NCBI GenBank assembly: GCA_032718475.1
Contig: JAUCBJ010005964.1
Span: 1 to 49,164, forward strand
Length of the DNA stretch: 49,164 nucleotides
Direction of reading: 5' to 3'
Origin: Nemertoderma westbladi
Taxonomy: Eukaryota; Animalia; Xenacoelomorpha
Shown here: positions 18,105 to 49,164 of the stretch, piece after piece
How the letters are laid out: the number at the start of each line of letters is the position of its first letter
Position numbering within the stretch: position 1 is the stretch's first letter
Notes under the pieces: model-generated
Seen by the model: only the letters and a program-made list of their open reading frames with translations
Told to the model about the DNA's origin: nothing
Databases searched by the model: none
Program-made: the position numbers and the translations under genes

Positions 18105-18440
18105 TTCCATTTTATATTACTAGTGTATATTAAAATATTATTGGATCGATGTTCTAACAAATTACTTTAATAATAAGAATGTTATAACAAACAAATCTAC
18201 TCTCTCTAACCGGTGAGGCAGAAAAACAGCCTACGAACAGACAAAACTCATCAGAAAAACAATCCCGCGCAGCAAATCCTAAACTAATAACGCTGATGGT
18301 CCGACTATATCCGTAAACTTGCCGCGGTGTGATTTATATGGGGGTGGGTTTGCTAGCTAAATACTAGCGAGCTATTCAGCAGACCAAAATTCACAGTCGT
18401 ATATATAATAGAAAAGAAACAAAACAAGGTTCTAGAACAC

Positions 18441-18549
18441 GAGTGTGTGTGTGTGTGTGTGTGGGGGGGGGGGGGGTGTATGTGTGTGTAGGGGTGTGTG
18501 TGTGTGTGTGTGTGTGTGGGGGTGGGGGTGTGTGTGTGTGTGGGGTGTG

Positions 18550-18584
<35 letters not shown>

Positions 18585-18594
18585 GCGTGTAGGG

Positions 18595-18625
<31 letters not shown>

Positions 18626-18638
18626 GTGTGTGGTGTGT
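18441..18638. repeat. Compound (TG)n/poly-G microsatellite (candidate empty target site)
   Basis: Directly visible; preceded by aacacg, as are the other two tracts. Confidence 0.95.
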
Positions 18639-18855
18639 CAATTTAAATCGAACAAAAAGGCAGAACATAAACAGTAAACAGTAAAAAATATACACCTTTT
18701 TATTTGGGGTTGGTGGCCGGTAGGGCGAAAAATCGAATGCTAGACTGCTAAAATAAGTCTGATCACCCCTCTGTACATACTGTAGGTCTAATACTCACAA
18801 ATGTTGAATTTATATTGAATTATTTATTATTTTTATTATTATTTTAATAAATTTC

Positions 18856-26304: not shown

Positions 26305-26318
26305 TCTGCCGGATGGTG

Positions 26319-26773
26319 CAAACCGGGGAGACATACTGTACTTTTGACCCGCAAAGCGGGGAGCGATTTCAAACCGGGGAGCTCCCCGGTTTGTAAGACG
26401 TCTATAATCATATTAAGGAGGTCAAATATAATCAGTATGACGTCATTTTTTATAAATATAATTTTATTTTATATCATCCCCGGTTTGTGTTTATGAAGCG
26501 AACTTGGTGTGTCTATGAATGTGGAGTGTATCGGAATTTATGGTCCCCGGTTTGTGTGAAAAATATCCGTGCTCCCCGCTTTGTAATATTCGCCGCTAGA
26601 TGTCGCAAAATCGTAGGTGAAAAATTATACGAAGCCAATAACGGAGTGTGACAGTCCCCGGTTTGCTACTATCCCGCCTAGCAGCCTAGTAAGAACTAAG
26701 TAGATTACCTGTACCTCTACATATGTCGCAAATTTCCATAAACCAATAATTGAGTGTGTCGCTCCCCGGTTTG
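26319..26773. repeat. Subterminal motif cluster: 9 copies of TCCCCG(G/C)TTTG, including the perfect 24-bp palindrome at 26370-26393
   Basis: Copies at 26319, 26352, 26370 (inverted) and 26383, 26477, 26544, 26573, 26655, 26763. Confidence 0.9.
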
Positions 26774-27362
26774 AAAATGTTGTGCCTTTATTTTGTTAGT
26801 AGAAATGCATGGCTAATTACATGTATTTTAATTAAACATATCAATATGTTCAAAAACTGTTCCAATATGTACGACGCTAATGAAAATCAACTCTAATAAA
26901 AAAATTTTCCTTCGTTTGCAGAGATGGTGTATACATATGTGCACTTTTCCTCATGTTGTATTTTTTATTCCAGCAAAATCATATCTTTAAAAGTGTCCTT
27001 AAATTTTGCATGTATGTATAAGGCCCAGGACGCATCGTGTGCCCTAGGGGTCTCATCATGTGAAAAAAAAAGTTTCCAGGGGAACTTGTTTTTGAAAAAA
27101 ATACGATATAATTGAAGTCAATAAAACCATAATAGATACAAACTTGCGGTTTCCCAACTCAAATAAAGGGTTAGGTGAGCACACTACTATGGTTAATTAG
27201 AAAATTCAGTTACATAAGACGCTGCAAAAATTTACGTTAATTACGCTAATCTAACGTTATAGACTATCTTGTCTTCGGTTAGGGAAAAAGTTTCAAAAAA
27301 ATAAATTTTCCAACCGTTTCATAACAGTTCAATAGCTAAATGTCCACAAAACATTAATCCTA

Positions 27363-27601
27363 AACGTAAAGCTGACGTTTAATTAAATTAAATGTTAATT
27401 AAGCAACTCCTGAAAGTTCATCTCATCCACGCCACGCCCTACATTTAGATCTAACCGGGAGTCGTTGCTCATATACTACTCTCCTTCCATATGATTAACT
27501 TTAATAATATGAATTCAGTTATGTTCCCCGCTTCGATAACGAAAATAAATGTCTGTGTCAACAAGCATTGTTTTGGGTTAACAAAACGATGTACTTTTTG
27601 T
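27363..27601. repeat. ~240-bp direct repeat DR1 flanking the 30-bp array
   Basis: aacgtaaagc...gatgtactttttgt repeated at 31322-31557. Confidence 0.93.
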
Positions 27602-30600
27602 AATCAGTACTACAAAATACGAACAACTGGTAATCCGTACTACAAAATACGAACAACTGGTAATCAGTACTACATAATACGAACAACTGGTAATCAGTAC
27701 TACAAAATACGAACAACTGGTAATCCGTACTACAAAATACGAACAACTGGTAATCAGTACTACAAAATACGAACAACTGGTAATCCGTACTACAAAATAC
27801 GAACAACTGGTAATCCGTACTACAAAATACGAACAACTGGTAATCAGTACTACATAATACGAACAACTGGTAATCAGTACTACAAAATACGAACAACTGG
27901 TAATCCGTACTACAAAATACGAACAACTGGTAATCAGTACTACATAATACGAACAACTGGTAATCAGTACTACAAAATACGAACAACTGGTAATCCGTAC
28001 TACAAAATACGAACAACTGGTAATCAGTACTACAAAATACGAACAACTGGTAATCCGTACTACATAATACGAACAACTGGTAATCAGTACTACATAATAC
28101 GAACAACTGGTAATCAGTACTACATAATACGGACAACTGGTAATCAGTACTACATAATACGAACAACAACTGGTAATTAGTACTACAAAATACGAACAAC
28201 TGGTAATCCGTACTACATAATACGAACAACTGGTAATCCGTACTACATAATACGAACAACTGGTAATCAGTACTACATAATACGAACACAACTGGTAATT
28301 AGTACTACAAAATACGAACAACTGGTAAACCGTACTACATAATACGAACGACTGGTAATCAGTACTACACAATACGAACGACTGGTAATCAGTACTACAA
28401 AATACGAACAACTGGTAATCAGTACTACAAAATACGAACAACTGGTAATCAGTACTACACAATACGAACGACTGGTAATCAGTACTACATAATACGAACG
28501 ACTGGTAATCAGTACTACATAATACGAACGACTGGTAATCAGTACTACATAATACGAACAACAACTGGTAATCCGTACTACATAATACGAACAACAACTG
28601 GTAATTAGTACTACAAAATACGAACAACTGGTAATCAGTACTACAAAATACGAACAATTGGTAATCAGTACTACATAATACGAACAACTGGTAATCCGTA
28701 CAACAAAATACGAACAACTGGTAATCCGTACTACATAATACGAACAACTGGTAATCCGTACTACATAATACGAACAACAACTGGTAATCAGTACTACATA
28801 ATACGAACAACTGGTAAACCGTACTACATAATACGAACAACTGGTAAACCGTACTACATAATACGAACAACAACTGGTAATCAGTACTACATAATACGAA
28901 CAACAACTGGTAATCAGTACTACATAATACGAACGACTGGTAATCAGTACTACATAATACGAACGACTGGTAATCAGTACTACAAAATACGAACAACTGG
29001 TAATCAGTACTACACAATACGAACGACTGGTAATCAGTACTACATAATACGAACGACTGGTAATCAGTACTACATAATACGAACAACTGGTAATCCGTAC
29101 TACATAATACGAACAACAACTGGTAATCCGTACTACATAATACGAACAACAACTGGTAATTAGTACTACATAATACGAACAACTGGTAATCAGTACTATA
29201 TAATACGAACAACTGGTAATCCGTACTACAAAATACGAACAACTGGTAATCAGTACTACAAAATACGAACAACTGGTAATCAGTACTACATAATACGAAC
29301 AACTGGTAATCCGTACTACATAATACGAACAACAACTGGTAATCCGTACTACATAATACGAACAACAACTGGTAATCCGTACTACATAATACGAACAACA
29401 ACTGGTAATCAGTACTACATAATACGAACAACTGGTAATCAGTACTATATAATACGAACAACTGGTAATCAGTACTACAAAATACGAACAACTGGTAATC
29501 AGTACTACAAAATACGAACAACTGGTAATCAGTACTACATAATACGAACAACTGGTAATCCGTACTACATAATACGAACAACAACTGGTAATCCGTACTA
29601 CATAATACGAACAACAACTGGTAATTAGTACTACAAAATACGAACAACTGGTAATCAGTACTACAAAATACGAACAACTGGTAATCAGTACTATATAATA
29701 CGAACAACTGGTAATCAGTACTACAAAATACGAACAACTGGTAATCAGTACTACAAAATACGAACAATTGGTAATCAGTACTACATAATACGAACAACAA
29801 CTGGTAATCCGTACTACATAATACGAACAACAACTGGTAATTAGTACTACAAAATACGAACAACTGGTAATCAGTACTACAAAATACGAACAATTGGTAA
29901 TCAGTACTACATAATACGAACAACTGGTAATCCGTACAACAAAATACGAACAACTGGTAATCCGTACTACATAATACGAACAACTGGTAATCCGTACTAC
30001 ATAATACGAACAACAACTGGTAATCAGTACTACATAATACGAACAACTGGTAAACCGTACTACATAATACGAACAACTGGTAAACCGTACTACATAATAC
30101 GAACAACAACTGGTAATCAGTACTACATAATACGAACAACAACTGGTAATCAGTACTACAAAATACGAACAACTGGTAATCCGTACTACATAATACGAAC
30201 AACTGGTAATCCGTACTACATAATACGAACAACAACTGGTAATCAGTACTACATAATACGAACAACTGGTAAACCGTACTACATAATACGAACAACTGGT
30301 AAACCGTACTACATAATACGAACAACAACTGGTAATCAGTACTACATAATACGAACAACAACTGGTAATCCGTACTACATAATACGAACAACTGGTAAAC
30401 CGTACTACATAATACGAACAACTGGTAAACCGTACTACATAATACGAACAACTGGTAAACCGTACTACATAATACGAACAACAACTGGTAATCAGTACTA
30501 CAAAATACGAACAACTGGTAAACCGTACTACATAATACGAACAACTGGTAAACCGTACTACATAATACGAACAACAACTGGTAATCAGTACTACATAATA

Positions 30601-31157
30601 CGAACAACAACTGGTAATCCGTACTACATAATACGAACAACAACTGGTAATCAGTACTACAAAATACGAACAACTGGTAAACCGTACTACATAATACGAA
30701 CAACTGGTAAACCGTACTACATAATACGAACAACTGGTAAACCGTACTACATAATACGAACAACTGGTAAACCGTACTACATAATACGAACAACTGGTAA
30801 ACCGTACTACATAATACGAACAACAACTGGTAATCAGTACTACAAAATACGAACAACTGGTAAACCGTACTACATAATACGAACAACTGGTAAACCGTAC
30901 TACATAATACGAACAACAACTGGTAATCAGTACTACATAATACGAACAACAACTGGTAATCCGTACTACATAATACGAACAACTGGTAAACCGTACTACA
31001 TAATACGAACAACTGGTAAACCGTACTACATAATACGAACAACTGGTAAACCGTACTACATAATACGAACAACAACTGGTAATCAGTACTACAAAATACG
31101 AACAACTGGTAATCCGTACTACATAATACGAACAACTGGTAATCAGTACTACATAAT
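27601..31157. repeat. 30/33-bp minisatellite (more than 110 units) in E1
   Basis: Unit taatc(a/c)gtactaca(a/t)aatacgaacaactgg with +aac and aaacc variants. Confidence 0.98.
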
Positions 31158-31321
31158 TTACTGTCTCTCGCCATAATAATGTATTATAATGCCTTATCTA
31201 TTCACAACTTAGTACATAGTTTCCTGCACAATACAAATACAATACAAATACAATACAAATAAAACATTTGTATATTAAAACAAAATACAACAAATATGCA
31301 CAGTAGTTACTACAAAATATG

Positions 31322-31557
31322 AACGTAAAGCAGACGTTTAATTTAATTAAATGTTAATTAAGCAACTCCTGAAAGTTCATCTCATCCACGCCACGCCCTA
31401 CATTTAGATCTAACCGGGAGTCGTTGCTCATATACTCTCCTTCCATATGATTATCTTTAATGATATGAATTCAGTTATGTTCCCCGCTTCGATAACGAAA
31501 ATAAATGTCTGTGTCAACAAGCATTGTTTTGGGTTAACAAAACGATGTACTTTTTGT
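31322..31557. repeat. ~240-bp direct repeat DR2, just downstream of the YR stop codon
   Basis: Matches 27363-27601. Confidence 0.93.
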
Positions 31558-32315
31558 CAGCTACTTGTGTTTTAGTTGTTTTTCACTGATAGCTCTTCTA
31601 AGATTTTCTTCCGATTGTTCCGATAATAGTCTTTGACATTTCGCCATGTTCTACCACTTAGCACGGGATTTTCAATTATTAACTTTTCCAGAGGATCTTT
31701 ACCTGGTAGCTTTTCAAGTAAAAGCATCTCCTGAATTCCATTAAGATTCGTCAAGGCCGTTGATTCCGCCATGGTCCAGGGTCTTTTTATTATTGGTTTG
31801 CGTACCGGTACTGAATAAAAAAAGATAGATGTGAATAAGTAACGTTATCAGTTTATCACGTTTAGGATACCATAAGCACAATAATATGATTATAATATTT
31901 AATGCCAAAATGTGCCATTTTTCTATTTAATTTCTAATAAGGTGCTTACAATGTAGCATTGTAACATGAATGAAATATTAATATTATGGAATTAAATAAG
32001 TATAACAGCAATTTATTGCACACTACTACTATTTATACAAACAAGCAGTACTCTTCTTGTTCTTGGCTAAAGTACAAGATGCTGAATTCTTTACAGCAAC
32101 AGTACAAATAAAGTTAATTTCCCATAGAGTAAAATAATTATTCATTAATATAATGTTACCGTTTCGATAAAAACAATGACGGTGAATTTCATTGAAAAAA
32201 GTTATGTTAATTGACATTATTTTCTATTATCAAAACGGGGAATTTTTAAAAAGAATAAGACATGAATACCTAAAATTTTCATGTTATTAATAAAAGTTCA
32301 GTTTTTAAGCACAAA

Positions 32316-32422
32316 ATAGTCGGCTGAAGCCTGAGGCTACCCGAAGGTAGGGGTGGACGCTACTCCTATCCTAAGAATTGCTCCCAGTTATTTAACTGGT
32401 ACTCATTTTATCGACCTCAGGG
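32316..32422 (-). mobile_element. SINE central-domain-like fragment in YR intron 2 (also at about 44050-44156)
   Basis: The minus strand reads gaggtcgataaaatgagtaccagttaaataactggg, which resembles the conserved core of Deu/Nin-type SINEs as I recall it. Confidence 0.45.
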
Positions 32423-32565
32423 CAGGGACTTGCATCGAATCGAATCGAAAGCAATTTTTCGTCTTCTATTTCCCATATATTTTTCGATTCGATTTCGATT
32501 CGATTCAGCACAATTTCGATTCGACTCAAGTAAAAAATTTCGACTTCGATTCGATTATTCGACCT
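32423..32565. repeat. (TTCGA)-rich MITE-end-like repeat in YR intron 2 (also at about 44157-44299)
   Basis: cagggacttgcatcgaatcgaatcgaa followed by many ttcga units. Confidence 0.55.
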
Positions 32566-33458
32566 ATGAATATTAACTTAATTATTTGTCATTAAATATA
32601 CATTATAAATTGTATTCTTAACCTGTATTTTCAAAATTCGATATGCCAATAGCTCTGCTCGTGGATGAAGTAGGGGATGGCCGACCAATACTCCTATGAT
32701 CATCAATCCCATCAACACCAATTTGAACAGCAGCAGCAACTTGATCATAACCTTCTATTTGAGTAACAGGTTCGACGTCAGAATCTGAATCTGAATTGTC
32801 CATAAGGTGGTCTATAAATGAAAAGAATGAAAATTATTGTAAAATGTAGGAATGGAAAGATAATACATAACCTAGAAATTGTAAGTTGAAATCCCATCTC
32901 GCCAAATTTAATTTTCTCCTTCATGTTAAATTATCAATTTAGGGATGCAGATTAAAGTCGCACGTTATTCCAACCAAAACAATAAACCCAATCAATAGAA
33001 CAGGTTACAGATTCATTGTTGGGAGTAATCAGCTGTTATTTGCTTCGATTTACCCCATTTTGATTGCGCTGGACCCCCCCCCCCCCCCCCCCCTCTTACC
33101 TACAGATAAGATACCTAGATAAATATTAAATAGACACACTCACCTATAGAATTATCATTCAGGATATCCTCCAGATTACGCCCTTTAAATTCAGCCAGGT
33201 TGCCCTTCTCCATTACCATGAACAGCTTGGATAACTTGGTTACCCTCTGGACTTTATCAGGTAAGCGGTAAAACTCTCGATGAACGCGTATGTCGTGGCC
33301 CATAAAACCTGCCAACAGCTCGAGGTCTTGTTCGCTAAGATTTAGCATAGCCACACTTGTGGCAATATGCTTACGTAACTTCGTAGATGTCATAGCCTTT
33401 GGATTTGTGAGGTTGACAACAGAAACAAGGCTGTGCAGAGCATCATATCCTCGGACGT

Positions 33459-34617
33459 ATCCTTCTTCAAGGCCTTTGATTCAGTCTCTCGCTCACGTAT
33501 GTTCAGCATACTTTCATTATATGGGATTCCTGATGAAATTATTGCAGCAATCAGATCAGTATACGATGGTTCGACAACATTTGTGTCTACTGTTGACGGT
33601 GACACAGAACCATTTGAAGTGTTATGGGGCGTCCTCCAAGGAGACACACTTGCACCATTCTTGTTCATTATTGTGGTTGACTATGTTCTACGCATGTCCT
33701 TAGATCATCATAATGATGATGGGGTGATGATAACTCCACCTACTGGCTCCAGAAGTCGAGGAAATCCTGCCAAGTACCTAACTGATCTAGACTTTGCTGA
33801 TGACTTAGGAGTACTCTCAGAATCATTAGAGGGAGCCCAGCGGCTCCTCAGCTCATTAGAACATGCTGCTTCTAGTGTTGGTCTTTTTATTAACTCCAGA
33901 AAGACCAAAATTCTGACAGTTAACTTTGAAAGTCCTCAGCAAGTCTCTGATCGGATGAGCATAAGCTCAAAGGATGGTATGCTTGAGCATGTGGACGACT
34001 TCTGTTACCTGGGATCATGGATCCGGAAGTCAGGTGAGGACCTTCGAATACGTAAGGGAAAGGCATGGGCAGCCTTGAATAGGCTTTCCAGGATTTGGAA
34101 GTCACCTAGAATTAATCGGAAACTTAAGGTCCGATTATTTAGAGCAGCAGTAGTTCCAGTACTCCTCTACGGGAGTCCATGCTGGGCTCTAACTGCTGAG
34201 GATACCAAATCTCTGGATGGCACATTCACAAGAATGCTACGCCGGGTACATTGTGTCAAGTACAATGCACACATCTCCAACCAGACACTATATAACATTG
34301 GAGGTGTCTCATTGGTTCCCCCAAGCTTGACACTAGAACAAAATCGCCTCCGCTTTGCAGGACATTGCTTTCGCCGTGAGGACCAGCCAGTGCATAATCT
34401 TGTACTTTGGCAGCCTCATGGAGTGAATAAGCATGGTGGACAGCCCATGACTTTCTTGAGACGCATCTTAAAGGACACTGGCCTTAAAGATGCGGATGAT
34501 CTAGCAAATGTCATGGGTGATAGGGAGTTGTGGCGGTGCAATTTTGTTGACAAGCCGGCACAGCATTCTTAAAAATGCAGCTGCAATGCAGCATGCCGAT
34601 CCTAGTAGTCCTAGTAG
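33459..34617 (+). mobile_element. 5'-truncated RTE-like LINE with open RT ORF, 13-bp TSD and (CTAGTAGT) tail
   Basis: FKAFDSV, GVLQGDTLAPFLF, DFADD, FCYLGS, VLLYG, RLRFAGH; stop at 34572; TSD tatcctcggacgt at 33446-33458 and 34618-34630; single empty site in copy 2 at 45178-45190. Confidence 0.95.
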
Positions 34618-36469
34618 TATCCTCGGACGTGGGAAACACTACCATAGTTCGCACGAGCAAAGAGATATTCATTCGTGCTATTAACGCCAACTTCCTCTCG
34701 ATACTTCAACAAACACTCGATAGCTCCGATGGTTTTACCATTTAAAAGAACTGGTACAGTACGACCACATTTACCAACAATCTCCATTACTTGAAAGAGT
34801 CGACACATGTTCTGTTCGAGAACACCCAAGTGGCTATTGTCATCTGACACCTCATTTACATGATGACGTTTACTAAAGTCATCAACCTTAATTTTCGATA
34901 CCTCTCCTTGTCTACGTCTGTTAAAGATAATTAAGTACGCAAGTACAAGCTCATTAAGGGATTGCCAACTTTGTTTAATTTGAATTTCCTTATCAATTAA
35001 TGACATATGTTCTGGAATCCTTTGCTGAATATATTCAGTTAGTTTAACAATGTCGCTGACTAATGGGAGCAATTGTGGCTTATTACGCTTGTTCTGTTGA
35101 ATGGTACGTAGTGCATGACCTGAGACTGACACTGGCCATCTTATGGTGCACAGTGATAGGAAGTTGTCCGCAGACTCCATAGTATCAGTATCATTTAGTT
35201 CAATTGAACTAGCCTTCAATAGTGTTGCACATTTCTTTACAGAGTGACCCTGCTTCAATGCCAGGGAAGGATGCTGAAAGGTGTTGGACGAAGAATCAAA
35301 ACCAGCCAACTTGTATACTGCATCCACTATAACTGTTAGTTTAGACGGGATGATGAAATCCTGCAACTTTGCCCTTGGAAAGTTCTCGCATTCTCTCAAT
35401 TGTATCAAGAGACGCCCAAGTTCACGCAACTTATCTCTGATATAACCTCTACGGTCGTAATCATGGCCATTCTTATGGCACTCCCTTTTAGCAAATTCCA
35501 ATATTAAGGCATCTGACCTTACAGCAAAAGAAACTGGGCCGTTGTTCATAGAAGATATAATCTCTTTCACCGTTTTGGATAGATCTGATGGACTTCCAAT
35601 ACAGGGTATGAGCAGTTTACTTTCATAGGACCACCTCCCTGTTCCTAGACAACCATGTCCAGACTCTTTACCTATATCACGCAATGGGCAACGATGGCGC
35701 CAAAGATCACCTTTTAAATACCACCCCATACAAACAGGGCATGGGCCATAGTTATCTACAGTATAACATTGGGATTCTGAAACGCTCTTACTATGTCGAT
35801 ATACAACCTGTAATGTGCCTTGGTTCTTTTCTAGAACTTCAATATTGTGTACATGAGCCCCAAGGTTACGAATCTTGCTCTGTAGAATATGTTTTTCAGC
35901 TAAAGAACCAGCTATCATGATGCGAATGACAAAATCTTCATTTGAATGCTTTCGTGTCAAATGGTTATGCAATTTTGACTGCGGCTGTTTACAATAAAAA
36001 CAGTATTGCTTTTTATCATAACTACGACCACCTTCATTATTAGTGTAGGGTATTTGAACACTTGATTCCTTATTCATTGAGTACTTAGCCTTCACTTTAG
36101 ATTTCGTTGAAATAGAGCATCCTACTCCGGGATTAATAATTTCTTCATTCTTATTGTACTCATCATCACAAGATTCTGATATCTCATCATCAGAAAGTAC
36201 CCAGTCTTTATCTCGACAATCATCACAGCCAAGGTCTTCTAATATATCAAGTGAAAATGGATCTGACTCTATTGCAGATGGTGAAATGGTTGTAAGTGGT
36301 CTCATACATAAGTCTGAAATGTTTTCATCTTGAAGATCTATTGATTCAAGTATCGCTATCGCTGATTCATCATCATCATTGGGCATGTAATCACTGAAGT
36401 AGTCATCGATGAGGTCGGTGACCTTCTTGGCAGGAGAACAAGTATTTAAATCAGAGGGAGCAATAGAGA

Positions 36470-37840
36470 TAACGGGGACATCAGTATCAGTAAGAGGGGG
36501 GATATAGACAGCAGTGGGGGCAACTACTGCGAGACTGACATCAGTCGGAGTAATTGGTGGGACATAGACAGCAGTAGGGGCAACTTGGGTGACAGAGACA
36601 TCTGTCGGAGCAACAGGGGGGACAGAGAAAGCAGTCGGAGGAACAGGGGGGACAGAGACAGCAGTGGGGTTTACAAGTAGGTTATCGACATCTGTCGGAG
36701 CAACAGGGGGGATAGAGACTGCGGTGGGGGCAACAAGTGGGACATTGATATCAGTTGGAGCAACAGGGGGAACAAAGACATCAGTCGGAGTAATTGGTGA
36801 GTCATAGACAGCAGTAGGGATAACTTGGGTGACAGAGACATCTGTCGGAGCAACAGGCGAGATAGAGAAAGCAGTCGGAGCAACAGGGGGGACAGAGGCA
36901 GCAGTGGGGGCTACAAGTGGGATATCGATATCTGCCGGAGCAACAGGGGGGACAGAGACATCAGTGGGGACAACAAGGGGGAACGGGACAGAAGTGCGGT
37001 CTACAAGTAGGTTATCGACATCTGTCGGAGCAACAGGGGAGATAGAGACTGCGGCGAGGGCAACAAGTGGGACATTGTTATCAGTCGGAGCAACAGGGGG
37101 AACAAAGACATCAGTCGGAGTAATTGGTGAGTCATAGACAGCAGTAGGGATAACTTGGGTGACAGAGACATCTGTCGGAGCAACAGGGGAGATAGAGAAA
37201 GCAGTCGGAGCAACAGGGGGAACAGAGACAGCAGTCGGAGCAACAGGAGGGACAGATACAGCATTCAGAGTAATTGGTGGGACATAGGCAGCAGTCGGAG
37301 TAATTGGTGGGACATAGACAGCAGTAGGGGTAACTTGGGTGACAGAGACATCTGTCGGAGCAACAGGGGAGATAGAGAAAGCAGTCGGAGCAACAGGGGG
37401 AACAGAGACAGCAGTCGGAGCAACAGGAGGGACAGATACAGCATTCAGAGTAATTGGTGGGACATAGGCAGCAGTCGGAGTAATTGGTGGGACATAGACA
37501 GCAGTAGGGGCAACTTGGGTGACAGAGACATCTGTCGGAGCAACAGGGGAGATAGAGACTGCGGTGGGGGCAACAAGTGGGACATTGTTATCAGTCGGAG
37601 CAACAGGGGGAACAAAGACATCAGTCGGAGTAATTGGTGGGACATAGACAGCAGTAGGGGCAACTTGGGTGACAGAGACATCTGTCGGAGCAACAGGGGA
37701 GATAGAGAAAGCAGTCGGAGCAACAGGGGGGACAGAGACAGCAGTGGGGGCTACAAGTGGGATATCGATATCTGCCGGAGCAACAGGGAGGACAGAGACA
37801 GCAGTGGGGGCAACAAGGGGGAACGGGACAGAAGTGGGGA
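36470..37840 (-). repeat. Coding 30-bp repeat (VPPVAPTAVS-type decapeptides) in the YR N-terminus, copy 1
   Basis: gacagagacagcagtcggagcaacaggggg-type units with higher-order blocks. Confidence 0.95.
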
Positions 37841-38065
37841 CAATATGGACTGCACTAACAAGTCTCTTTCTGAGTTGATATTGTTTTCGAATACCATCGT
37901 TACAGACGTTTTCTTTCCGAAATCTTTTTCTTATACCATCCATGTTTCTTACTGAGGGAAGGTGGCTAAATATCTCCAATCATCATTTACGTTGTAGTTT
38001 ACGAATAACTCTATCAAAACTAGTTCTACTAATAACTCTATAAGGTAAAACAAACTTGGTACGTA

Positions 38066-38256
38066 CGGGTTGGCATACAATCTTCGCCCGGGGAACCTTC
38101 GCCCGCAAGGCAATCTTCGCCAGTGAGCAACCTTCGCCCAATAAGATTTGTGTTAGTTGCCATTTAAGGTTTCCACCGGGCGAATAGTTGCTCATTTTGA
38201 GGGCGAAGATTGGACGAGGACGAAGCTTTCTCGCCGGTGAAGTTTGCTACGCACCG
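38066..38256. mobile_element. Small MITE with CGG...CCG ends, TA flanks and TTCGCC subrepeats
   Basis: ta|cgggttggcatacaatcttcgccc ... ggtgaagtttgctacgcaccg|ta; ttcgcc repeats on the left, ggcgaa repeats on the right. Confidence 0.65.
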
Positions 38257-39288
38257 TACATACACAGTCTCGTGCTGCGCGTACATTTAATTTAGTTATT
38301 AGATATTCATTTAAGTTATTAGAGTTTCGTTTCAGAGAACAATTATTCTTTTGTAAATTGTTTGAAAACGAAAGTTCATAAATCAGTATTTAGCATTTAA
38401 ATTTTCAAGTCAGAAATATACAAATTTTTAGGCTATTATAATTTTCAGTGTCTGTAAATATAATGAAACATACCCTAAATTCGCTCTCTGTACAAAAGTG
38501 TGCGATTAAACAATTAAATTAGTCCCCCCATGACCTACTATAACTTATAGTATGTCACCCCCTCCCATTTAGAAGACCGCCAGTAGGCCTATACTTTTCA
38601 ATAAATTGAATGTGAGTCAAACATATAGATTTCCAAAACAATACACTACAGCCATGGGAACATGTTACAGTTTCATATTTGTCGTTATCAGCAGTGGTTG
38701 TCGGAGTAGCGTATACAATATTTATACATCCACCAAGTACATGACTACTAATAGAGTTAATAGATAAATTTATCTCCATTTCAGGGGGTTCTTTGGGTTT
38801 CAGTGTGAAATTTATTTTGTAATTATTTATTTATTATAGTATTTATTAAATAATATAATGCAATCTGAAATATGAATACAATTCTATGTATGTTACCGGA
38901 GTTACCCAATACAGTAATAATGAAATTATGCCTAAATTTATCTAAGACAAATTTAATAAATCTTCCATCCCCGCTTTGATAATAAATTACGAAACTCTCA
39001 GACACACACAATCAATAAAGAAGGATGATCGCATACATAAGTATCACCCATCATTGTTTGTACTAGACTAAATATATGCCTCACAATCTTGTTGTAATTG
39101 TATTGGCTAATAGTGCTTTTCTACGAGACGGGGTGGCCAGTATTCTAGTAGGTTATGTCCTATTATTATTGTACCTAAACAACTAAGCCAGATACATTGG
39201 GCCTATAGTTTCCATAACAACTGCTAACAAGCCCCATTTTGTAAAAAACAAACGAACACCTCTAACACTTTTCAAGTACATAGGTGTG

Positions 39289-39502
39289 TCCCCGGTTTGC
39301 TAAGTGTGTCCCCGGTGTGCATGGTAGAAACGGGACATTAAATTTCTATTTTCAGTTAATTAATAGGTGCATTAAAGATAGATAATTTTCCGCTGATTAC
39401 GAATTTGCACCTGTCGTTAAAATTCCTTAATGACCAAATGAATTACAAGCGTTTCCTTTTGGTCCCCAGTTTGTTGTTACGAAATTTGGCCTCCCCGGTT
39501 TC
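39289..39502. repeat. Four TCCCCGGTTT-like motifs at the putative other end of E1
   Basis: Copies at 39289, 39309, 39463, 39492. Confidence 0.85.
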
Positions 39503-39514
39503 CATAATAAACAC

Positions 39515-39523
39515 GTAGGGGTG

Positions 39524-39570
<47 letters not shown>

Positions 39571-39576
39571 AGGGGT
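39515..39576. repeat. (TG)n tract at the E1/E2 junction, bracketed by GTAGGGGT direct repeats
   Basis: gtaggggt at 39515-39522 and 39569-39576. Confidence 0.92.
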
Positions 39577-40622
39577 TCTGCCGGATGGTGCAAACCGGGG
39601 AGACATACTGTACTTTTGACCCGCAAAGCGGGGAGCGATTGCAAACCGGGGAGCTCCCCGGTTTGTAAGACGTCTATAATCATATTAAGGAGGTCAAATA
39701 TAATCAGTATGACGTCATTTTTTATAAATATAATTTTATTTTATATCATCCCCGGTTTGTGTTTATGAAGCGAACTTGGTGTGTCTATGAATGTGGAGTG
39801 TATCGGAATTTATGGTCCCCGCTTTGTGTGAACAATATCCGTGCTCCCCGCTTTGTAATATTCGCCGCTAGATGTCGCAAAATCGTAGGTGAAAAATTAT
39901 ACGAAGCCAATAACGGAGTGTGACAGTCCCCGGTTTGCTACTATCTCGCCTAGTAAGAACTAAGTAGATTACCGGTACCTCTACATATGTCGCAAATTTC
40001 CATAAACCAATAATTGAGTGTGTCGCTCCCCGGTTTGAAAATGTTGTGCCTTTATTTTGTTAGTAGAAATGCATGGCTAATTACATGTATTTTAAACATA
40101 TCAATATGTTCAAAAACTGTTCCAATATGTACGAAGCTAATGAAAATCAACTCTAATAAAAAAATTTTCCTACGTTTGCAGAGATGGTGTATACATATGT
40201 GCACTTTTCCTCATGTTGTATTTTTTATTCCAGCAAAATCATATCTTTAAAAGTGTCCTTAAATTTTGCATATATGTATAAGGCCCAGGATGCATCGTGT
40301 GCCCTAGGGGTCTCATCATGTGAAAAAAAAAGTTTCCAGGGGAACTTGTTTTTGAAAAAAATACGATATAATTGAAGTCAATAAAACCATAATATATACA
40401 AACTTGCGGTTTCCCAACTCAAATAAAGGGTTAGGTGAGCACACTACTATGGTTAATTAGAAAATTCAGTTACATAAGACGCTGCAAAAATTTACGTTAA
40501 TTACGTTAATCTAACGTTATAGACTATCTTGTGTTCGGTTAGGGAAAAAGTTTCAAAAAAATAAATTTTCCAACCGTTTCATAACAGTTCAATAGCTAAA
40601 TGTCCACAAAACATTAATCCTA

Positions 40623-40858
40623 AACGTAAAGCAGATGTTTAATTTAATTAAATGTTAATTAAGCAACTCCTGAAAGTTCATCTCATCGACGCCACGCCCT
40701 ACATTTAGATCTAACTGGGAGTCGTTGCTCATATACTCTCCTTCCATATGATTAACTTTAATAATATGAATTCAGTTATGTTCCCCGCTTCGATAACGAA
40801 AATAAATGTCTGTGTCAACAAGCATTGTTTTGGGTTAACAAAACGATGAACTTTTTGT
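40623..40858. repeat. DR1 of E2 (partner at about 43039-43279)
   Basis: Same ~240-bp direct repeat pair as in E1. Confidence 0.9.
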
Positions 40859-42886
40859 AATCAGTACTACAAAATACGAACAACTGGTAATCAGTACTAC
40901 ATAATACGAACAACTGGTAATCAGTACTACATAATACGAACAACTGGTAATCAGTACTACATAATACGAACAACTGGTAATCCGTACTACATAATACGAA
41001 CAACTGGTAATCCGTACTACAAAATACGAACAACTGGTAATCAGTACTACAAAATACGAACAACTGGTAATCCGTACTACAAAATACGAACAACTGGTAA
41101 TCAGTACTACAAAATACGAATAACTGGTAATCAGTACTACAAAATACGAACAACTGGTAATCAGTACTACATAATACGAACAACTGGTAATCCGTACTAC
41201 AAAATTCGAACAACTGGTAATCAGTACTACATAATACGAACAACTGGTAATCAGTACTACATAATACGAACAACTGGTAATCCGTACTACAAAATACGAA
41301 CAACTGGTAATCAGTACTACAAAATACGAACAACTGGTAATCCGTACTACAAAATACGAACAACTGGTAATCAGTACTACAAAATACGAACAACTGGTAA
41401 TCCGTACTACAAAATACGAACAACTGGTAATCAGTACTACATAATACGAACAACTGGTAATCAGTACTACATAATACGAACAACTGGTAATCCGTACTAC
41501 AAAATACGAACAACTGGTAATCAGTACTACAAAATACAAACAACTGGTAATCAGTACTACATAATACGAACAACTGGTAATCAGTACTACAAAATACGAA
41601 CAACTGGTAATCAGTACTACATAATACGAACAACTGGTAATCCGTACTACATAATACGAACAACTGGTAATCCGTACTACAAAATACGAACAACTGGTAA
41701 TCAGTACTACATAATACGAACAACTGGTAATCAGTACTACATAATACGAACAACTGGTAATCCGTACTACATAATACGAACAACTGGTAATCCGTACTAC
41801 AAAATACGAACAACTGGTAATCCGTACTACATAATACGAACAACTGGTAATCCGTACTACAAAATACGAACAACTGGTAATCAGTACTACAAAATACGAA
41901 CAACTGGTAATCAGTACTACAAAATACGAACAACTGGTAATCCGTACTACAAAATACGAACAACTGGTAATCAGTACTACATAATACGAACAACTGGTAA
42001 TCAGTACTACAAAATACGAACAACTGGTAATCAGTACTACAAAATACGAACAACTGGTAATCAGTACTACAAAATACGAACAACTGGTAATCCGTACTAC
42101 AAAATACGAACAACTGGTAATCAGTACTACATAATACGAACAACTGGTAATCCGTACTACAAAATACGAACAACTGGTAATCCGTACTACATAATACGAA
42201 CAACTGGTAATCCGTACTACAAAATACGAACAACTGGTAATCAGTACTACAAAATACGAACAACTGGTAATCAGTACTACAAAATACGAACAACTGGTAA
42301 TCCGTACTACAAAATACGAACAACTGGTAATCAGTACTACATAATACGAACAACTGGTAATCCGTACTACATAATACGAACAACTGGTAATCCGTACTAC
42401 AAAATACGAACAACTGGTAATCAGTACTACATAATACGAACAACTGGTAATCCGTACTACATAATACGAACAACTGGTAATCCGTACTACAAAATACGAA
42501 CAACTGGTAATCAGTACTACATAATACGAACAACTGGTAATCAGTACTACAAAATACGAATAACTGGTAATCAGTACTACAAAATACGAACAACTGGTAA
42601 TCCGTACTACAAAATACGAACAACTGGTAATCAGTACTACAAAATACGAACAACTGGTAATCAGTACTACATAATACGAACAACTGGTAATCCGTACTAC
42701 AAAATACGAACAACTGGTAATCCGTACTACATAATACGAACAACTGGTAATCAGTACTACAAAATACGAACAACTGGTAATCAGTACTACATAATACGAA
42801 CAACTGGTAATCAGTACTACAAAATACGAACAACTGGTAATCAGTACTACATAATACGAACAACTGGTAATCAGTACTACAAAATT
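40858..42886. repeat. 30-bp minisatellite (about 67 units) in E2
   Basis: Strict 30-bp period with no 33-bp variants. Confidence 0.98.
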
Positions 42887-43293
42887 TACTGTATCTCGCC
42901 ATAATAATGTATTATAATGCCTTATCTATTCACAACTTAGTACATAGTTTCCTGCACAATACAAATACAATACAAATAAAACATTTGTATATTAAAACAA
43001 AATACAACAAATATGCACAGTAGTTACTACAAAATATGAACGTAAAGCAGATGTTTAATTTAATTAAATGTTAATTAAGCAACTCCTGAAAGTTCATCTC
43101 ATCCACGCCACGCCCTACATTTAGATCTAACCGGGAGTCGTTGCTCATATACTGTACTCTCCTTCCATATGATTATCTTTAATGATATGAATTCAGTTAT
43201 GTTCCCCGCTTCGATAACGAAAATAAATGTCTGTGTCAACAAGCATTGTTTTGGGTTAACAAAACGATGTACTTTTTGTCAGCTACTTGTGTT

Positions 43294-46200
43294 TTAGTTG
43301 TTTTTCACTGATAGCTCTTCTAAGATTTTCTTCCGATTGTTCCGGTAATAGTCTTTGACATTTCGCCATGTTCTACCACTTAGCACGGGATTTTCAATTA
43401 TTAACTTTTCCAGAGGATCTTTACCTGGTAGCTTTTCAAGTAAAAGCATCTCCTGAATTCCATTAAGATTCGTCAAGGCCGTTGATTCCGCCATGGTCCA
43501 GGGTCTTTTTATTATTGGTTTGCGTACCGGTACTGAATAAAAAAAAAGATAGATGTGAACAAGCAACGTTATCACTTTATCACGTTTAGGATACCGTAAG
43601 CACAATAATATGATTACAATATTTAATGCCAAAATGTGCCATTTTTCTATTTAATTTCTAATAAGGTGCTTACAATGTAGCATTGTAACATGAATGAAAT
43701 AGTAATATTATGGAATTATATAAGTATAACACATCATACAAAGCAATTTATTGCACACTACTACTCTTTATACAAAAAGCAGTACTATTCTTGTTCTTGG
43801 CTAAAGTACAAGATGCTGAATTCTTTACAGCAACAGTACAAATAAAGTTAATTTCCCATAGAGTAAAATAATTATTCATTAATATAATGTTACCGTTTCG
43901 ATAAACACAATGACGGTGAATTTCATTGAAAAAAGTTATGTTAATTGACATTATTTTCTATTATCAAAACGGGGAATTTTTAAAAAGAATAAGACATGAA
44001 TACCTAAAATTTTCATGTTATTAATAAAAGTTCAGCTTTTAAGCACAAAATAGTCGGCTGAAGCCTGAGGCTACCCGAAGGTAGGGGTGGACGCTACTCC
44101 TATCCTAAGAATTGCTCCCAGTTATTTAACTGGTACTCATTTTATCGACCTCAGGGCAGGGACTTGCATCGAATCGAATCGAAAGCAATTTTTCGTCTTC
44201 GATTTCCCATATATTTTTCGATTCGATTTCGATTCGATTCAGCACAATTTCGATTCGACTCAAGTAAACAATTTCGACTTCGATTCGATTATTCGACCTA
44301 TGAATATTAACTTAATTATTTGTCATTAAATATACATTATAAATTTTATTCTTAACCTGTATTTTCAAAATTCGATATGCCAATAGCTCTGCTCGTGGAT
44401 GAAGTAGGGGATGGCCGACCAATACTCCTATGATCATCAATCCCATCAACACCAATTTGAACAGCAGCAGCAACTTGATCATAACCTTCTATTTGAGTAA
44501 TAGGTTCGACGTCAGAATCAGAATCTGAATTGTCCATAAGGTGGTCTATAAATGAAAACAATGAAAATTATTGTAAAATGTAGGAATGGAAAGATAATAC
44601 ATAACCCAGAAATTGTAAGTTGAAATCCCATCTCGCCAAATTTAATTTTCTCCTTCATGTTAAATTATCAATTTAGGGATGCAGATTAAAGTCGCACGTT
44701 ATTCCAACCAAAACAATAAACCCAATCAATAGAACAGGTTACAGATTCATTGTTGGGAGTAATCAGCTGTTATTTGCTTCGATTTACCCCATTTTGATTG
44801 CGCTGGACCCCCCCCCCCCCCCCCCTCTTACCTACAGATAAGATACCTAGATAAATATTAAATAGACACACTCACCTATAGAATTATCATTCAGGATATC
44901 CTCCAGATTACGCCCTTTAAATTCAGCCAGGTTGCCCTTCTCCATTACCATGAACAGCTTGGATAACTTGGTTACCCTCTGGACTTTATCAGGTAAGCGG
45001 TAAAACTCTCGATGAACGCGTATGTCGTGGCCCATAAAACCTGCCAACAGCTCGAGGTCTTGTTCGCTAAGATTTAGCATAGCCACACTTGTGGCAATAT
45101 GCTTACGTAACTTCGTAGATGTCATAGCCTTTGGATTTGTGAGGTTGACAACAGAAACAAGGCTGTGCAGAGCATCATATCCTCGGATGTGGGAAACACT
45201 ACCATAGTTCGCACGAGCAAAGAGATATTCATTCGTGCTATTAACGCCAACTTCCTCTCGATACTTCAACAAACACTCGATAGCTCCGATGGTTTTACCA
45301 TTTAAAAGAACTGGTACAGTACGACCACATTTACCAACAATCTCCATTACTTGAAAGAGTCGACACATGTTCTGTTCGAGAACACCCAAGTGGCTATTGT
45401 CATCTGACACCTCATTTACATGATGACGTTTACTAAAGTCATCAACCTTAATTTTCGATACCTCTCCTTGTCTACGTCTGTTAAAGATAATTAAGTACGC
45501 AAGTACAAGCTCATTAAGGGATTGCCAACTTTGTTTAATTTGAATTTCCTTATCAATTAATGACATATGTTCTGGAATCCTTTGCTGAATATATTCAGTT
45601 AGTTTAACAATGTCGCTGACTAATGGGAGCAATTGTGGCTTATTACGCTTGTTCTGTTGAATGGTACGTAGTGCATGACCTGAGACTGACATTGGCCATC
45701 TTATGGTGCACAGTGATAGGAAGTTGTCCGCAGACTCCATAGTATCAGTATCATTTAGTTCAATTGAACTAGCCTTCAATAGTGTTGCACATTTCTTTAC
45801 AGAGTGACCCAGCTTCAATGCCAGGGAAGGATGCTGAAATGTGTTGGACGAAGAATCAAAACCAGCCAACTTGTATACTGCATCCACTATAACTGTTAGT
45901 TTAGACGGGATGATGAAATCCTGCAACTTTGCCCTTGGAATGTTCTCGCATTCCCTCAATTGTATCAAGAGACGCCCAAGTTCACGCAACTTATCTCTGA
46001 TATAACCTCTACGGTCGTAATCATGGCCATTCTTATGGCACTCCCTTTTAGCAAATTCCAATATTAAGGCATCTGACCTTACAGCAAAAGAAACTGGGCC
46101 GTTGTTCATAGAACATATAATCTCTTTCACCGTATTGGATAGATCTGATGGACTTCCAATACAGGGTATGAGCAGTTTACTTTCATAGGACCACCTCCCT

Positions 46201-48395
46201 GTTCCTAGACAACCATGTCCAGACTCTTTACCTATATCACGCAATGGGCAACGATGGCGCCAAAGATCACCTTTTAAATACCACCCCATACAAACAGGGC
46301 ATGGGCCATAGTTATCTACAGTATAACATTGGGATTCTGAAACGCTCTTACTATGTCGATATACAACCTGTAATGTGCCTTGGTTCTTTTCTAGAACTTC
46401 AATATTGTGTACATGAGCCCCAAGGTTACGAATCTTGCTCTGTAGACTATGTTTTTCAGCTAAAGAACCAGCTATCATGATGCGAATGACAAAATCTTCA
46501 TTTGAATGCTTTCGTGTCAAATGGTTATGCAATTTTGACTGCGGCTGTTTACAATAAAAACAGTATTGCTTTTTATCATAACTACGACCACCTTCATTAT
46601 TAGTGTAGGGTATTTGAACACTTGATTCCTTATTCATTGAGTACTTAGCCTTCACTTTAGATTTCTTTGAAATAGAGCATCCTACTCCGGGATTAATAAT
46701 TTCTTCATTCTTATTGTACTCATCATCACAAGATTCTGATATCTCATCATCAGAAAGTACCCAGTCTTTATCTCGACAATCATCACAGCCAAGGTCTTCT
46801 AATATATCAAGTGAAAATGGATCTGACTCTATTGCAGATGGTGAAATGGTTGTAAGTGGTCTCATATATAAGTCTGAAATGTTTTCATCTTGAAGATCTA
46901 TTGATTCAAGTATCGCTATCGCTGATTCATCATCATCATTGGGCATGTAATCACTGAAGTAGTCATCGATGAGGTCGGTGACCTTCTTGGCAGGAGAACA
47001 AGTATTTAAATCAGAGGGAGCAATAGAGATAACGGGGACATCAGTATCAGTATGAGGGGGGATATAGACAGCAGTGGGGGCAACTACTGGGAGACTGACA
47101 TCAGTCGGAGTAATTGGTGGGACATAGACAGCAGTAGGGGCAACTTGGGTGACAGAGACATCTGTCGGAGCAACAGGGGGGACAGAGAAAGCAGTCGGAG
47201 CAACAGGGGGGATAGAGACAGCAGTGGGGTTTACAAGTAGGTTATCGACATCTGTCGGAGCAACAGGGGGGATAGAGACTGCGGTGGGGGCAACAAGTGG
47301 GACATTGATATCAGTTGGAGCAACAGGGGGAACAAAGACATCAGTCGGAGTAATTGGTGAGTCATAGACAGCAGTAGGGGCAACTTGGGTGACAGAGACA
47401 TCTGTCGGAGCAACAGGGGAGATAGAGAAAGCAGTCGGAGCAACAGGGGGGACAGAGACAGCAGTGGGGGCTACAAGTGGGATATCGATATCTGCCGGAG
47501 CAACAGGGGGGGCAGAGACATCAGTGGGGACAACAAGGGGGGACGGGACAGAAGTGCGGGCTACAAGTAGGTTATCGACATCTGTCGGAGCAACAGGGGA
47601 GATAGAGACTGCGGTGGGGGCAACAAGTGGGACATTGATATCAGTTGGAGCAACAGGGGGAACAAAGACATCAGTCGGAGTAATTGGTGAGTCATAGACA
47701 GCAGTAGGGGCAACTTGGGTGACAGAGACATCTGTCGGAGCAACAGGGGAGATAGAGAAAGCAGTCGGAGCAACAGGGGGGACAGAGACAGCAGTGGGGG
47801 CTACAAGTGGGATATCGATATCTGCCGGAGCAACAGGGGGGGCAACAAGGGGGAACGGGACAGAAGTGCGGGCTACAAGTAGGTTATCGACATCTGTCGG
47901 AGCAACCGGGGAGATAGAGACTGCGGCGGGGGCAACAAGTGGGACATTGATATCAGTTGGAGCAACAGGGGGAACAAAGACATCAGTCGGAGTAATTGGT
48001 GAGTCATAGACAGCAGTAGGGGCAACTTGGGTGACAGAGACATCTGTCGGAGCAACAGGGGGGACAGAGAATGCAGTCGGAGCAACAGGGGGGACAGAGA
48101 CAGCAGTCGGAGCAACAGGAGGGACAGATACAGCATTCGGAGTAATTGGTGGGACATAGGCAGCAGTCGGAGTAATTGGTTGGACATAGACAGCAGTAGG
48201 GGCAACTTGGGTGACAGAGACATCTGTCGGAGCAACAGGGGGGACAGAGACAGCAGTGGGGGCAACAAGGGGGAACGGGACAGAAGTGTGGACAATATGG
48301 ACTGCACTAACAAGTCTCTTTCTGAGTTGATATTGTTTTCGAATACCATCGTTACAGACGTTTTCTTTCCGAAATCTTTTTCTTATACCATCCAT
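43294..48395 (-). CDS. Three-exon tyrosine recombinase (about 1315 aa): P/T/V repeats, Zn-finger-like motifs, YR domain, C-terminal Myb/SANT-like domain; exons 48395-44876, 44545-44357, 43532-43294
   Basis: CFYC..HLTRKH; CPVC..WRHRC; catalytic set NRRRQGEV (R), GKCGR (K), TKLRK, FMGH, FYRL (Y); both GT-AG introns are phase 1 and join in frame; exon 3 KRPWT..E..PGK..P.L.GRTWRNVKDYYRN; further upstream or internal exons not excluded. Confidence 0.85.
47030..48290 (-). repeat. Coding 30-bp repeat in the YR N-terminus, copy 2
   Basis: Same unit as in copy 1, net 108 bp shorter, frame preserved. Confidence 0.95.
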
Positions 48396-48517
48396 GTTTC
48401 TTACTGAGGGAAGGTGGCTAAATATCTCCAATCATCATTTACGTCGTAGTTTACGAATAACTCTATCAAAACTAGTTCTACTAATAACTCTATAAGGTAA
48501 AACAAACTTGGTACGTA

Positions 48518-48708
48518 CGGGTTGGCATACAATCTTCGCCCGGGGAACCTTCGCCCGCAAGGCAATCTTCGCCAGTGAGCAACCTTCGCCCAATAAGATT
48601 TGTGTTAGTTGCCATTTTAGGTTTCCACCGGGCGAATAGTTGCTCATTTTGAGGGCGAATATTGGACGAGGACGAAGCTTTCTCGCCGGTGAAGTTTGCT
48701 ACGAACCG
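48518..48708. mobile_element. Small CGG...CCG MITE with TA flanks (paralogue of 38066-38256)
   Basis: ta|cgggttggc...gctacgaaccg|ta. Confidence 0.65.
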
Positions 48709-49164
48709 TACATACACAGTCTCGTGCTGCGCGTACATTTAATTTAGTTATTAGATATTCATTTAAGTTATTAGAGTTTCGTTTCAGAGAACAATTATTC
48801 TTTTGTAAATTGTTTGAAAACGAAAGTTCATAAATCAGTATTTAGCATTAAAATTTTCAAGTCAGAAATATACAAATTTTTAGGCTATTATAGTTTTATC
48901 TGTAAATATAATGAAACATACCTTAAATTCGCTCTCTGTACAAAAGTGTGCGATTAAACAATTAAATTAGTCCCCCCATGACCTACTATAACTTATAGTA
49001 TGTCACCCCCCCCCCCCCCCCCCCCCCCCATTTAGAAGACCGCCAGTAGGCCTATACTTTTCAATAAATTGAATGTGAGTCAAACATATAGATTTCCAGT
49101 CCAGGTTGGTTTTCAGGGACACAGTTTTTAATTCAACATAGACCAAAATTTGTCAATGAAACGA

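What the first reader, a model, noticed from the sequence alone, without database searches (positions are those of the whole stretch)
26305..49098. Head-to-tail pair of large tyrosine-recombinase elements anchored in (TG)n microsatellites
Seen: two collinear units (about 13 kb with the LINE, and at least 9.5 kb), each starting immediately after a (TG)n tract with ttctgccggatggtgcaaaccgggga and each encoding an intron-containing protein with the YR catalytic set; no RT of its own, no LTR and no long TIR. Known: Cryptons are YR-encoding DNA transposons thought to move via circles; I recall the CryptonV group being described as microsatellite-targeting but cannot verify membership here. Inference: a microsatellite-targeting YR element that re-integrated next to itself or integrated as a dimer, with copy 2 potentially functional.
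Basis: partly seen in the sequence, partly recalled or inferred. Interest (0 to 1): 0.9.

Follow-up and report, generated by a model that had tools for sequence, protein, structure and literature searches.

The report
Two recombinase transposons in one microsatellite
Two near-identical copies of a large DNA element carrying a recombinase-like gene sit 58 bases apart inside one TG repeat of what is likely an animal genome; they are most likely separate insertions of a known but little-studied kind of microsatellite-seeking jumping gene (CryptonV-like), and one copy still has an open gene.

Summary
Two collinear units (0.6-1.4% substitutions) start after TG tracts at 26304 and 39576. Each carries a three-exon gene whose predicted fold is a tyrosine recombinase (XerH/Cre/Tn1549 Int hits; R-K-R-H-Y kept, the His of HxxR is Thr family-wide). 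Copy 1 is 26304-39517 and is broken by a truncated LINE. Copy 2 has an open 1315-codon frame but is interrupted at 49098, and its right end lies outside the window. New points: (1) a 27-bp imperfect terminal inverted repeat, arrays of a CCCCGGTTT motif at both ends and an 8-bp flanking direct repeat define the ends; (2) a paralogous empty tract at 18443-18640 shows that the 58-bp spacer is host microsatellite, which favours two separate insertions over a dimer or a tandem duplication; (3) 5 of 80 related loci from other genomes end at TG tracts in the same register. The protein family is large (4,507 clusters) and occurs across animals. This works like a CryptonV element. Membership by sequence could not be tested, because no Repbase sequences were available. 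Verdict: a new member of a known kind, useful as a mechanistic test case.

The parts
26194..26303 (.). Left part of the compound (TG)n/Gn host tract; its last 8 bases (GGGGTGTG) recur right after copy 1
26304..39517 (-). Copy 1 of the element, 13,214 bp including the LINE; both ends present
26304..26330 (.). Left 27-bp imperfect terminal inverted repeat; G4 core at positions 22-25
26319..26773 (.). Left subterminal array: 9 copies of the CCCCGGTTT motif, first three inverted, next six direct; inferred protein-binding sites
27363..31557 (.). 30-bp tandem array (115.6 copies here, 67.6 in copy 2) between two 240-bp direct repeats, downstream of the gene's stop; shared by both copies
31572..37943 (-). 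Recombinase gene of copy 1 (exons 37943-33144, 32811-32623, 31810-31572), split inside the catalytic domain by the LINE
33459..34617 (+). 5'-truncated LINE (RVT_1; RTE-like by recall), 1,159 bp, flanked by a 13-bp target-site duplication; absent from copy 2
38078..38212 (.). Short inverted-repeat (MITE-like) piece upstream of the gene, also in copy 2 near 48530-48664; very deeply covered in all four runs
38969..39502 (.). Right subterminal array: 5 direct copies of the motif
39491..39517 (.). Right 27-bp imperfect terminal inverted repeat of copy 1
39518..39575 (.). 58-bp spacer: the middle part of the host tract, G4 (TG)8 TT (TG)13 CGTGTA G4
39576..49098 (-). Copy 2 of the element from its left end to the point where foreign sequence interrupts it; right end outside the window
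43294..48395 (-). Recombinase gene of copy 2 (predicted exons 48395-44876, 44545-44357, 43532-43294; GT-AG, phase 1/1), open, 1315 aa: Pro/Thr/Val-rich repeat, Cys/His motifs, recombinase domains, acidic linker, Myb-like tail
49099..49164 (.). Foreign sequence interrupting copy 2, likely a nested insertion
18443..18640 (.). Empty-site paralog of the compound tract, in the duplication 15794-18550 = 23555-26304 (98.4%); outside the finding, used as the pre-insertion reference

Best explanation
These are two copies of one DNA element with a single tyrosine-recombinase-fold gene, most likely a CryptonV-like transposon that inserted twice, in likely separate events, 58 bp apart in one compound TG/G microsatellite. 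Shown: the collinear copies, the recombinase fold of the predicted model, the symmetric ends, the 8-bp direct repeat round copy 1, and that the spacer matches the host tract. Inferred mechanism: the recombinase binds the inverted 27-bp ends, with the CCCCGGTTT arrays as accessory sites for its extra Cys/His or Myb-like domains; it cuts the element out as a circle with a short spacer and recombines the circle into a TG tract after a G on the TG strand. Copy 1 then took a LINE inside the catalytic domain and copy 2 took an insertion upstream of its gene. Copy 2 could still supply enzyme in trans.
For: Fold: AlphaFold model of the last 584 codons of exon 1, mean pLDDT 89.6; all 9 Foldseek PDB matches at E<=0.001 are XerH/XerA chains, then Cre and Tn1549 Int; VIA-align Z 13.2 XerA, 12.8 integron integrase (rmsd 4.1, 277 aligned), 12.7 XerH (rmsd 4.5, 307 aligned); PF00589 in 6 of 20 aligned members. 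R975, K1022, R1097, H1123, Y1132 kept in 115, 117, 116, 113, 112 of 117 sequences. Ends: TIR register peaks at 39517 (17/27, next best 11). Separate events: the empty paralog reads ...G5 (TG)7 G3 (TG)9 TT (TG)10 CGTGTA G4 (TG)7 G17; copy 1's left flank stops in the G3 (TG) block and the spacer continues with TT and CGTGTA G4 in the same order; the two left flanks differ. Targeting: 6 ends in 5 of 80 related loci abut TG tracts with GG[G/T/A]G at positions 22-25; L079 has tracts at both ends 12.2 kb apart. Copies differ by 7 amino-acid-changing and 2 silent codons in 482, which shows no sign of purifying selection between them, on small numbers. Literature: some CryptonV families insert specifically in microsatellites (PMC8869645); Cryptons have short terminal direct repeats and a proposed circular intermediate (PMC3212892).
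Against: The window protein itself has no Pfam or PDB sequence match. The His of HxxR is Thr. No other insertion site in this genome was seen: no genome is held and the read tool masked the TG spacer. Only 6 of 18 related loci with at least 4 kb downstream, and 2 of 7 with at least 4 kb upstream, show a (TG)7+ tract there; the closest locus L001 (44%) has other repeats and no TG tract. In those relatives the gene lies on the TG strand, here on the CA strand. The empty paralog is low-complexity and differs by a few repeat units. Only one of the two copies has both junctions in view.
Confidence: 0.78

Rival explanations
1. One insertion became two by integration of a dimer circle or by unequal crossing-over between the TG tracts flanking a single copy.
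For: Same orientation, close spacing and about 1% divergence. Concatemers spanning the target repeat are reported for repeat-targeting recombinase elements (nimaviruses, PMC10871703).
Against: A dimer should have a junction of a few bases, not 58 bp. Unequal crossing-over should give both copies the same left flank, but these are GGGGTGTG and TGTAGGGG. The spacer holds TT and CGTGTA marks that are absent from copy 1's left flank and lie downstream in the empty paralog.
Confidence: 0.12
2. It is a host (domesticated) recombinase-fold gene copied by an ordinary local duplication; the TG tracts are just breakpoints.
For: The window holds another local duplication; the gene has introns; the His of HxxR is replaced; copy number could not be fixed.
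Against: Symmetric ends, subterminal arrays and a flanking direct repeat; the same end geometry in relatives at 34-36% protein identity; an empty paralogous site; 7:2 non-silent to silent codon changes.
Confidence: 0.05
3. The pair is an assembly artefact: two alleles or one repeat laid twice.
For: No laid contig spans the whole stretch, and the spacer was masked.
Against: Different left flanks, different array lengths, a LINE with its own duplication in one copy only; in run X1 two contigs break at 38633-38635, the place where copy 2 is interrupted, while contigs of X2 and X3 run through it.
Confidence: 0.05

Closest known systems
CryptonV (Kapitonov & Jurka 2012, Repbase Reports 12:2034; seen only as cited in PMC8869645)
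   Same: DNA element with a tyrosine recombinase, inserted in microsatellites, in animals.
   Different: Not comparable by sequence here. I could not see whether its description includes the 27-bp TIR, subterminal arrays, 8-bp direct repeat or the Thr for His.
Crypton A/F/I/S (PMC3212892; active CryptonF-1_cRei, PMC9977147)
   Same: Recombinase as the only enzyme, no RT, short direct repeats at the termini (F and S groups), proposed circular intermediate.
   Different: The paper says Cryptons have no TIRs and that CryptonA/I have no terminal repeats and no C-terminal domain; this element has short imperfect TIRs, an 8-bp direct repeat and a C-terminal Myb-like tail. CryptonF-1 uses a fixed donor/target motif, whereas the two left flanks here differ.
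Tn916/Tn1549 integrases (PMC12229494; PDB 6emy)
   Same: Same fold (Z 10.7); inverted ends; a circle with about 5-6 bp of unmatched coupling DNA would explain unlike flanks.
   Different: Bacterial and conjugative, AT-rich targets, excisionase; 12-13% identity only.
Telomere-repeat-targeting recombinases of endogenous nimaviruses (PMC10871703)
   Same: Repeat-targeted integration, C2H2-type N-terminal motif, incomplete canonical residue set (five of seven), concatemers.
   Different: Those are 278-580 kb viral genomes; no viral gene is in this element and no relative was found in viral contigs or phages. Relationship of the two protein families was not tested.

Membership tests
Crypton (recombinase-only DNA transposon) | Encodes a tyrosine-recombinase fold | tested here: met
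   PF00589 in 6 of 20 members, not in the window protein itself
Crypton (recombinase-only DNA transposon) | Catalytic tetrad R-H-R-Y | tested here: inconclusive
   R, K, R, second H and Y are conserved; the HxxR His position is Thr in 111 of 117. Positions were assigned by recalled motif spacing, not by structural superposition.
Crypton (recombinase-only DNA transposon) | No RT, LTR or DDE transposase of its own | tested here: met
   The only RT is the nested LINE; no other credible ORF in copy 2
Crypton (recombinase-only DNA transposon) | Short direct repeats at the termini, no long TIR | tested here: inconclusive
   An 8-bp direct repeat flanks copy 1 (published: 4-6 bp); there is no long TIR but a 27-bp imperfect one; one complete copy only
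Crypton (recombinase-only DNA transposon) | Dispersed copies with shared ends; excision as a circle | not testable with these tools
   No genome held; spacer masked in read laying
CryptonV | Insertion in microsatellites | tested here: met
   Three of three junctions in view abut TG/G tract; empty paralog; 5 of 80 related loci
CryptonV | Protein groups with Repbase CryptonV sequences | not testable with these tools
   No Repbase/Dfam sequences on hand; the primary report was not seen and the Kojima 2020 review is not held
DIRS/Ngaro recombinase retrotransposons | Own RT/RNase H and terminal LTR-like repeats | tested here: not met
Endogenous nimavirus or other DNA virus | Viral core genes on a genome of hundreds of kb | tested here: not met
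   Copy 1 is 13.2 kb with one gene

The most novel reading that the evidence does not exclude
This large animal recombinase family transposes without needing homology at the crossover, like Tn916/Tn1549: conserved 27-bp inverted ends with a G-rich core at positions 22-25 and arm-like subterminal arrays build a circle whose short spacer is carried from the donor flank. Copy 1 is a local hop from copy 2's site, and the GGGG after its right end is such a carried spacer, not part of a true target duplication. The open gene of copy 2 with both ends of copy 1 would make this directly testable and give a (TG)n-directed integrase for animal cells.
Probability: 0.25. Interest if true: 0.65.

Novelty: new member of a known kind. 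Interest (0 to 1): 0.4.

Why it matters
CryptonV is known mainly from database entries: 3 papers in the library hold the word, and the first active Cryptons were reported in an alga (PMC9977147). This locus offers exact ends, an empty-site reference, an interrupted (not pure) target tract in which junction bases can be read, and an open gene. That is what is needed to tell a target duplication from a carried spacer and to test how an animal recombinase finds microsatellites. It does not reveal a new kind of element.

Tried and rejected
No whole genome, so no genome-wide table of flanks. Sequence searches of the recombinase part against Pfam, PDB sequences, phages and viral contigs found nothing (21 pattern hits, none confirmed); only the fold search and homologues gave the assignment. 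No RNA holder was listed, so expression is untested. Laying contigs on the junction did not show flanks because the tool skips the TG spacer; run X5 covered only 2 of 30 bins. A single-copy depth baseline failed: the fibrinogen-domain gene chosen is itself multi-copy, and the tool warns that depth is no copy number. A first idea that a 7-base GTAGGGG was carried from the donor site was dropped once the TIR register and the relatives' ends put GTA inside the element. The 240-bp direct repeats were considered as LTRs and rejected: no TG...CA ends in both copies. L012 and L028 have TG tracts but doubtful ends and were not counted; the GA tract in L069/L070 lies inside their shared stretch. The Atlas gave, for homologue P0027 only, a Myb cluster (0.93; family on 40% of members) and DUF3435 leads under 0.9. 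Searches for a printed description of such ends found none; subscription journals and Repbase Reports are not covered.

Full report
Observation. The two units are collinear and in the same orientation. Outside tandem arrays they differ by 0.60-1.41% substitutions in four compared blocks. Their 30-bp arrays have 115.6 and 67.6 copies. Copy 1 alone holds a 1,159-bp piece with an RT match (RVT_1, E 1.5e-14), flanked by a 13-bp duplication. Similarity of copy 2 to copy 1 stops at 49098/38635 and 66 foreign bases follow.

The gene. On the minus strand copy 2 has predicted exons 48395-44876, 44545-44357 and 43532-43294 with GT-AG junctions, giving one open frame of 1315 codons. The splicing is predicted, not observed; exon 3 matches the C-terminal part of two annotated homologues (E 5e-10 and 4e-10), which supports it. 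The last 584 codons of exon 1 found 136 homologues among 7,997 scored candidates; the 120 listed are 32-49% identical, and the named ones are from fish, a frog, molluscs, echinoderms, a nemertean and a barnacle. A profile of 117 of these sequences matches 4,507 clusters at E<=1e-30. The window protein has no Pfam or PDB sequence hit, but 6 of 20 aligned members hit Phage_integrase. The model (pLDDT 89.6) matches XerH, XerA, Cre, Tn1549 Int and lambda Int by Foldseek and by VIA-align, where the top 25 rows are nearly all recombinase-fold proteins or type IB topoisomerases; viral-library hits are mostly named integrases. R975, K1022, R1097, H1123 and Y1132 are conserved in 112-117 of 117 sequences, while the His of HxxR is Thr in 111 of 117 (the positions rest on recalled motif spacing). 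Residues before about 185 of the model, with the Cys/His motifs, were barely tested by the fold search.

The ends. A CCCCGGTTT motif is repeated 9 times in each left end and 5 times in the right end, far above shuffles. Comparing the left 27 bases with the reverse complement of the right end over 15 offsets gives one peak, 17 of 27, at 39517; 11 of these identities are the motif itself. With these ends copy 1 is 13,214 bp and has GGGGTGTG on both sides, and copy 2's left flank is TGTAGGGG.

The empty site. Bases 15794-18550 repeat 23555-26304 at 98.4%, and contigs of runs X1 and X3 (one sample) carry the junction of the second copy of this duplication. The tract at 18443-18640 has no element. 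Written as runs, copy 1's left flank matches its first half, and the 58-bp spacer matches the next part, with the TT and CGTGTA marks in order. So the spacer is most simply host DNA and the copies mark two sites in one tract. A dimer circle or unequal crossing-over would not give this pattern. Caveat: the sequence is low-complexity and unit counts differ by one to four.

Relatives. Seven of the 80 have a (TG)7+ tract on the gene strand and two a (CA)7+ tract. In five (L064, L065, L066, L075, L079; six ends) the gene-facing side looks like an element end: GG[G/T/A]G at positions 22-25 from the tract, repeated motifs behind it in most, and L079 is bounded by tracts on both sides. For L065 the boundary was set two bases before the tract phase to fit. 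Most loci are too short to reach an end; of 18 with at least 4 kb downstream 6 show a TG tract, and of 7 with at least 4 kb upstream 2 do. These loci are scattered over a FastTree tree of 105 sequences (80 loci, 24 of the stored proteins, the window), so TG targeting is not special to this element. The gene lies on the TG strand in them and on the CA strand here.

Reads. Five runs from three studies hold the gene region, three of them at 0.80-0.84 of its words; one may be the source sample. Contigs of X1, X2 and X3 cover both element ends up to the masked spacer. In X1 two contigs break at 38633-38635 with unlike sequence beyond, which fits a nested insertion with the rest of the element on its far side; X2 and X3 contigs run through. 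Left-end depth exceeds right-end depth in X2 (164 against 40) and X3 (410 against 112), and a diverged contig of about one sixth the depth overlaps the gene's start in all three runs. This hints at several copies, but the tool warns that depth is no copy number and the baseline attempt failed.

Mechanism. Inferred: the recombinase binds the inverted ends and the arrays, excises a circle and inserts it after a G in TG/G repeats. This follows the Crypton model (PMC3212892) and the excisions and insertions seen for an algal Crypton (PMC9977147). A fixed, homology-matched 8-base core is unlikely, because the two left flanks differ. Two readings remain: an 8-bp duplication of the target, or a short unmatched spacer carried in the circle as in Tn916 (PMC12229494), where the GGGG after copy 1 equals the four bases before copy 2. 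Each needs one repeat unit of slippage against the empty paralog. I put them at about 60:40 in favour of the duplication; copy 2's right junction decides.

Known kinds and novelty. Microsatellite-targeting CryptonV families are in print (PMC8869645; listed in PMC4455052 and PMC5753468; named in PMC13465017). Sequence membership could not be tested. My recollection that CryptonV proteins look like this family, some with SET domains, comes from no call, though SET and OTU domains do occur on homologues. What I saw: passages of PMC8869645, PMC4455052, PMC5753468, PMC10871703, PMC9977147, PMC13465017 and PMC12229494; abstract, section 5 and passages of PMC3212892; nothing of the 2012 Repbase report or the 2020 review. 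No supplements were opened; Additional file 1 of PMC3212892 lists Crypton elements and may bear on the termini. Searches showed no description of these ends, which may still be in Repbase. Two earlier AI notes from other genomes describe similar elements at TTAGGG and TA repeats; they are unchecked and not used as support.

Verdict. Real feature; new member of a known kind; interest 0.4. The most novel open reading is homology-independent, Tn916-like hopping in an animal (probability 0.25).

Noticed in passing
window 15794-18550 and 23555-26304: A 2.76-kb duplication (98.4%) with a 107-bp x7 array, ending in the compound TG/G tract; segmental duplication or a separate mobile element.
   Followed up: partly
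window 27363-31557 and 40623-43279: A 30-bp tandem array between 240-bp direct repeats just after the gene's stop; its length differs almost twofold between the copies; long stop-free frames on both strands are a by-product.
   Followed up: partly
window 38078-38212 and about 48530-48664: A short MITE-like inverted-repeat piece upstream of the gene with depth over 9,000 in three runs; present in both copies, so older than their split.
   Followed up: partly
window 13189-13274: 86 bp matching the nested LINE at 97.7% in reverse: another fragment of the same young LINE family.
   Followed up: no
window 891-2983 (minus) and 6192-8392 (plus): Broken Pao/BEL-type retrotransposon pieces (RVT_1, Peptidase_A17, Integrase_H2C2) on either side of a 62-bp x37 array at 2887-5189.
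   Followed up: no
window 14387-15468: A gene with a predicted membrane stretch, a coiled repeat and a Fibrinogen_C domain, split over two frames; multi-copy by contig depth.
   Followed up: partly
window 49099-49164: Unidentified insertion interrupting copy 2; run X1 contigs suggest a 3-base overlap of its two junctions.
   Followed up: partly
L079:896-13115: An apparently complete 12.2-kb relative bounded by TG tracts on both sides, with the gene in the opposite orientation to the ends compared with the window element.
   Followed up: partly
L001:54-196 and 11403-11468: The closest related locus (44%) lies between AT-rich tri- and tetranucleotide repeats rather than TG; possibly a different target, ends not defined.
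   Followed up: no
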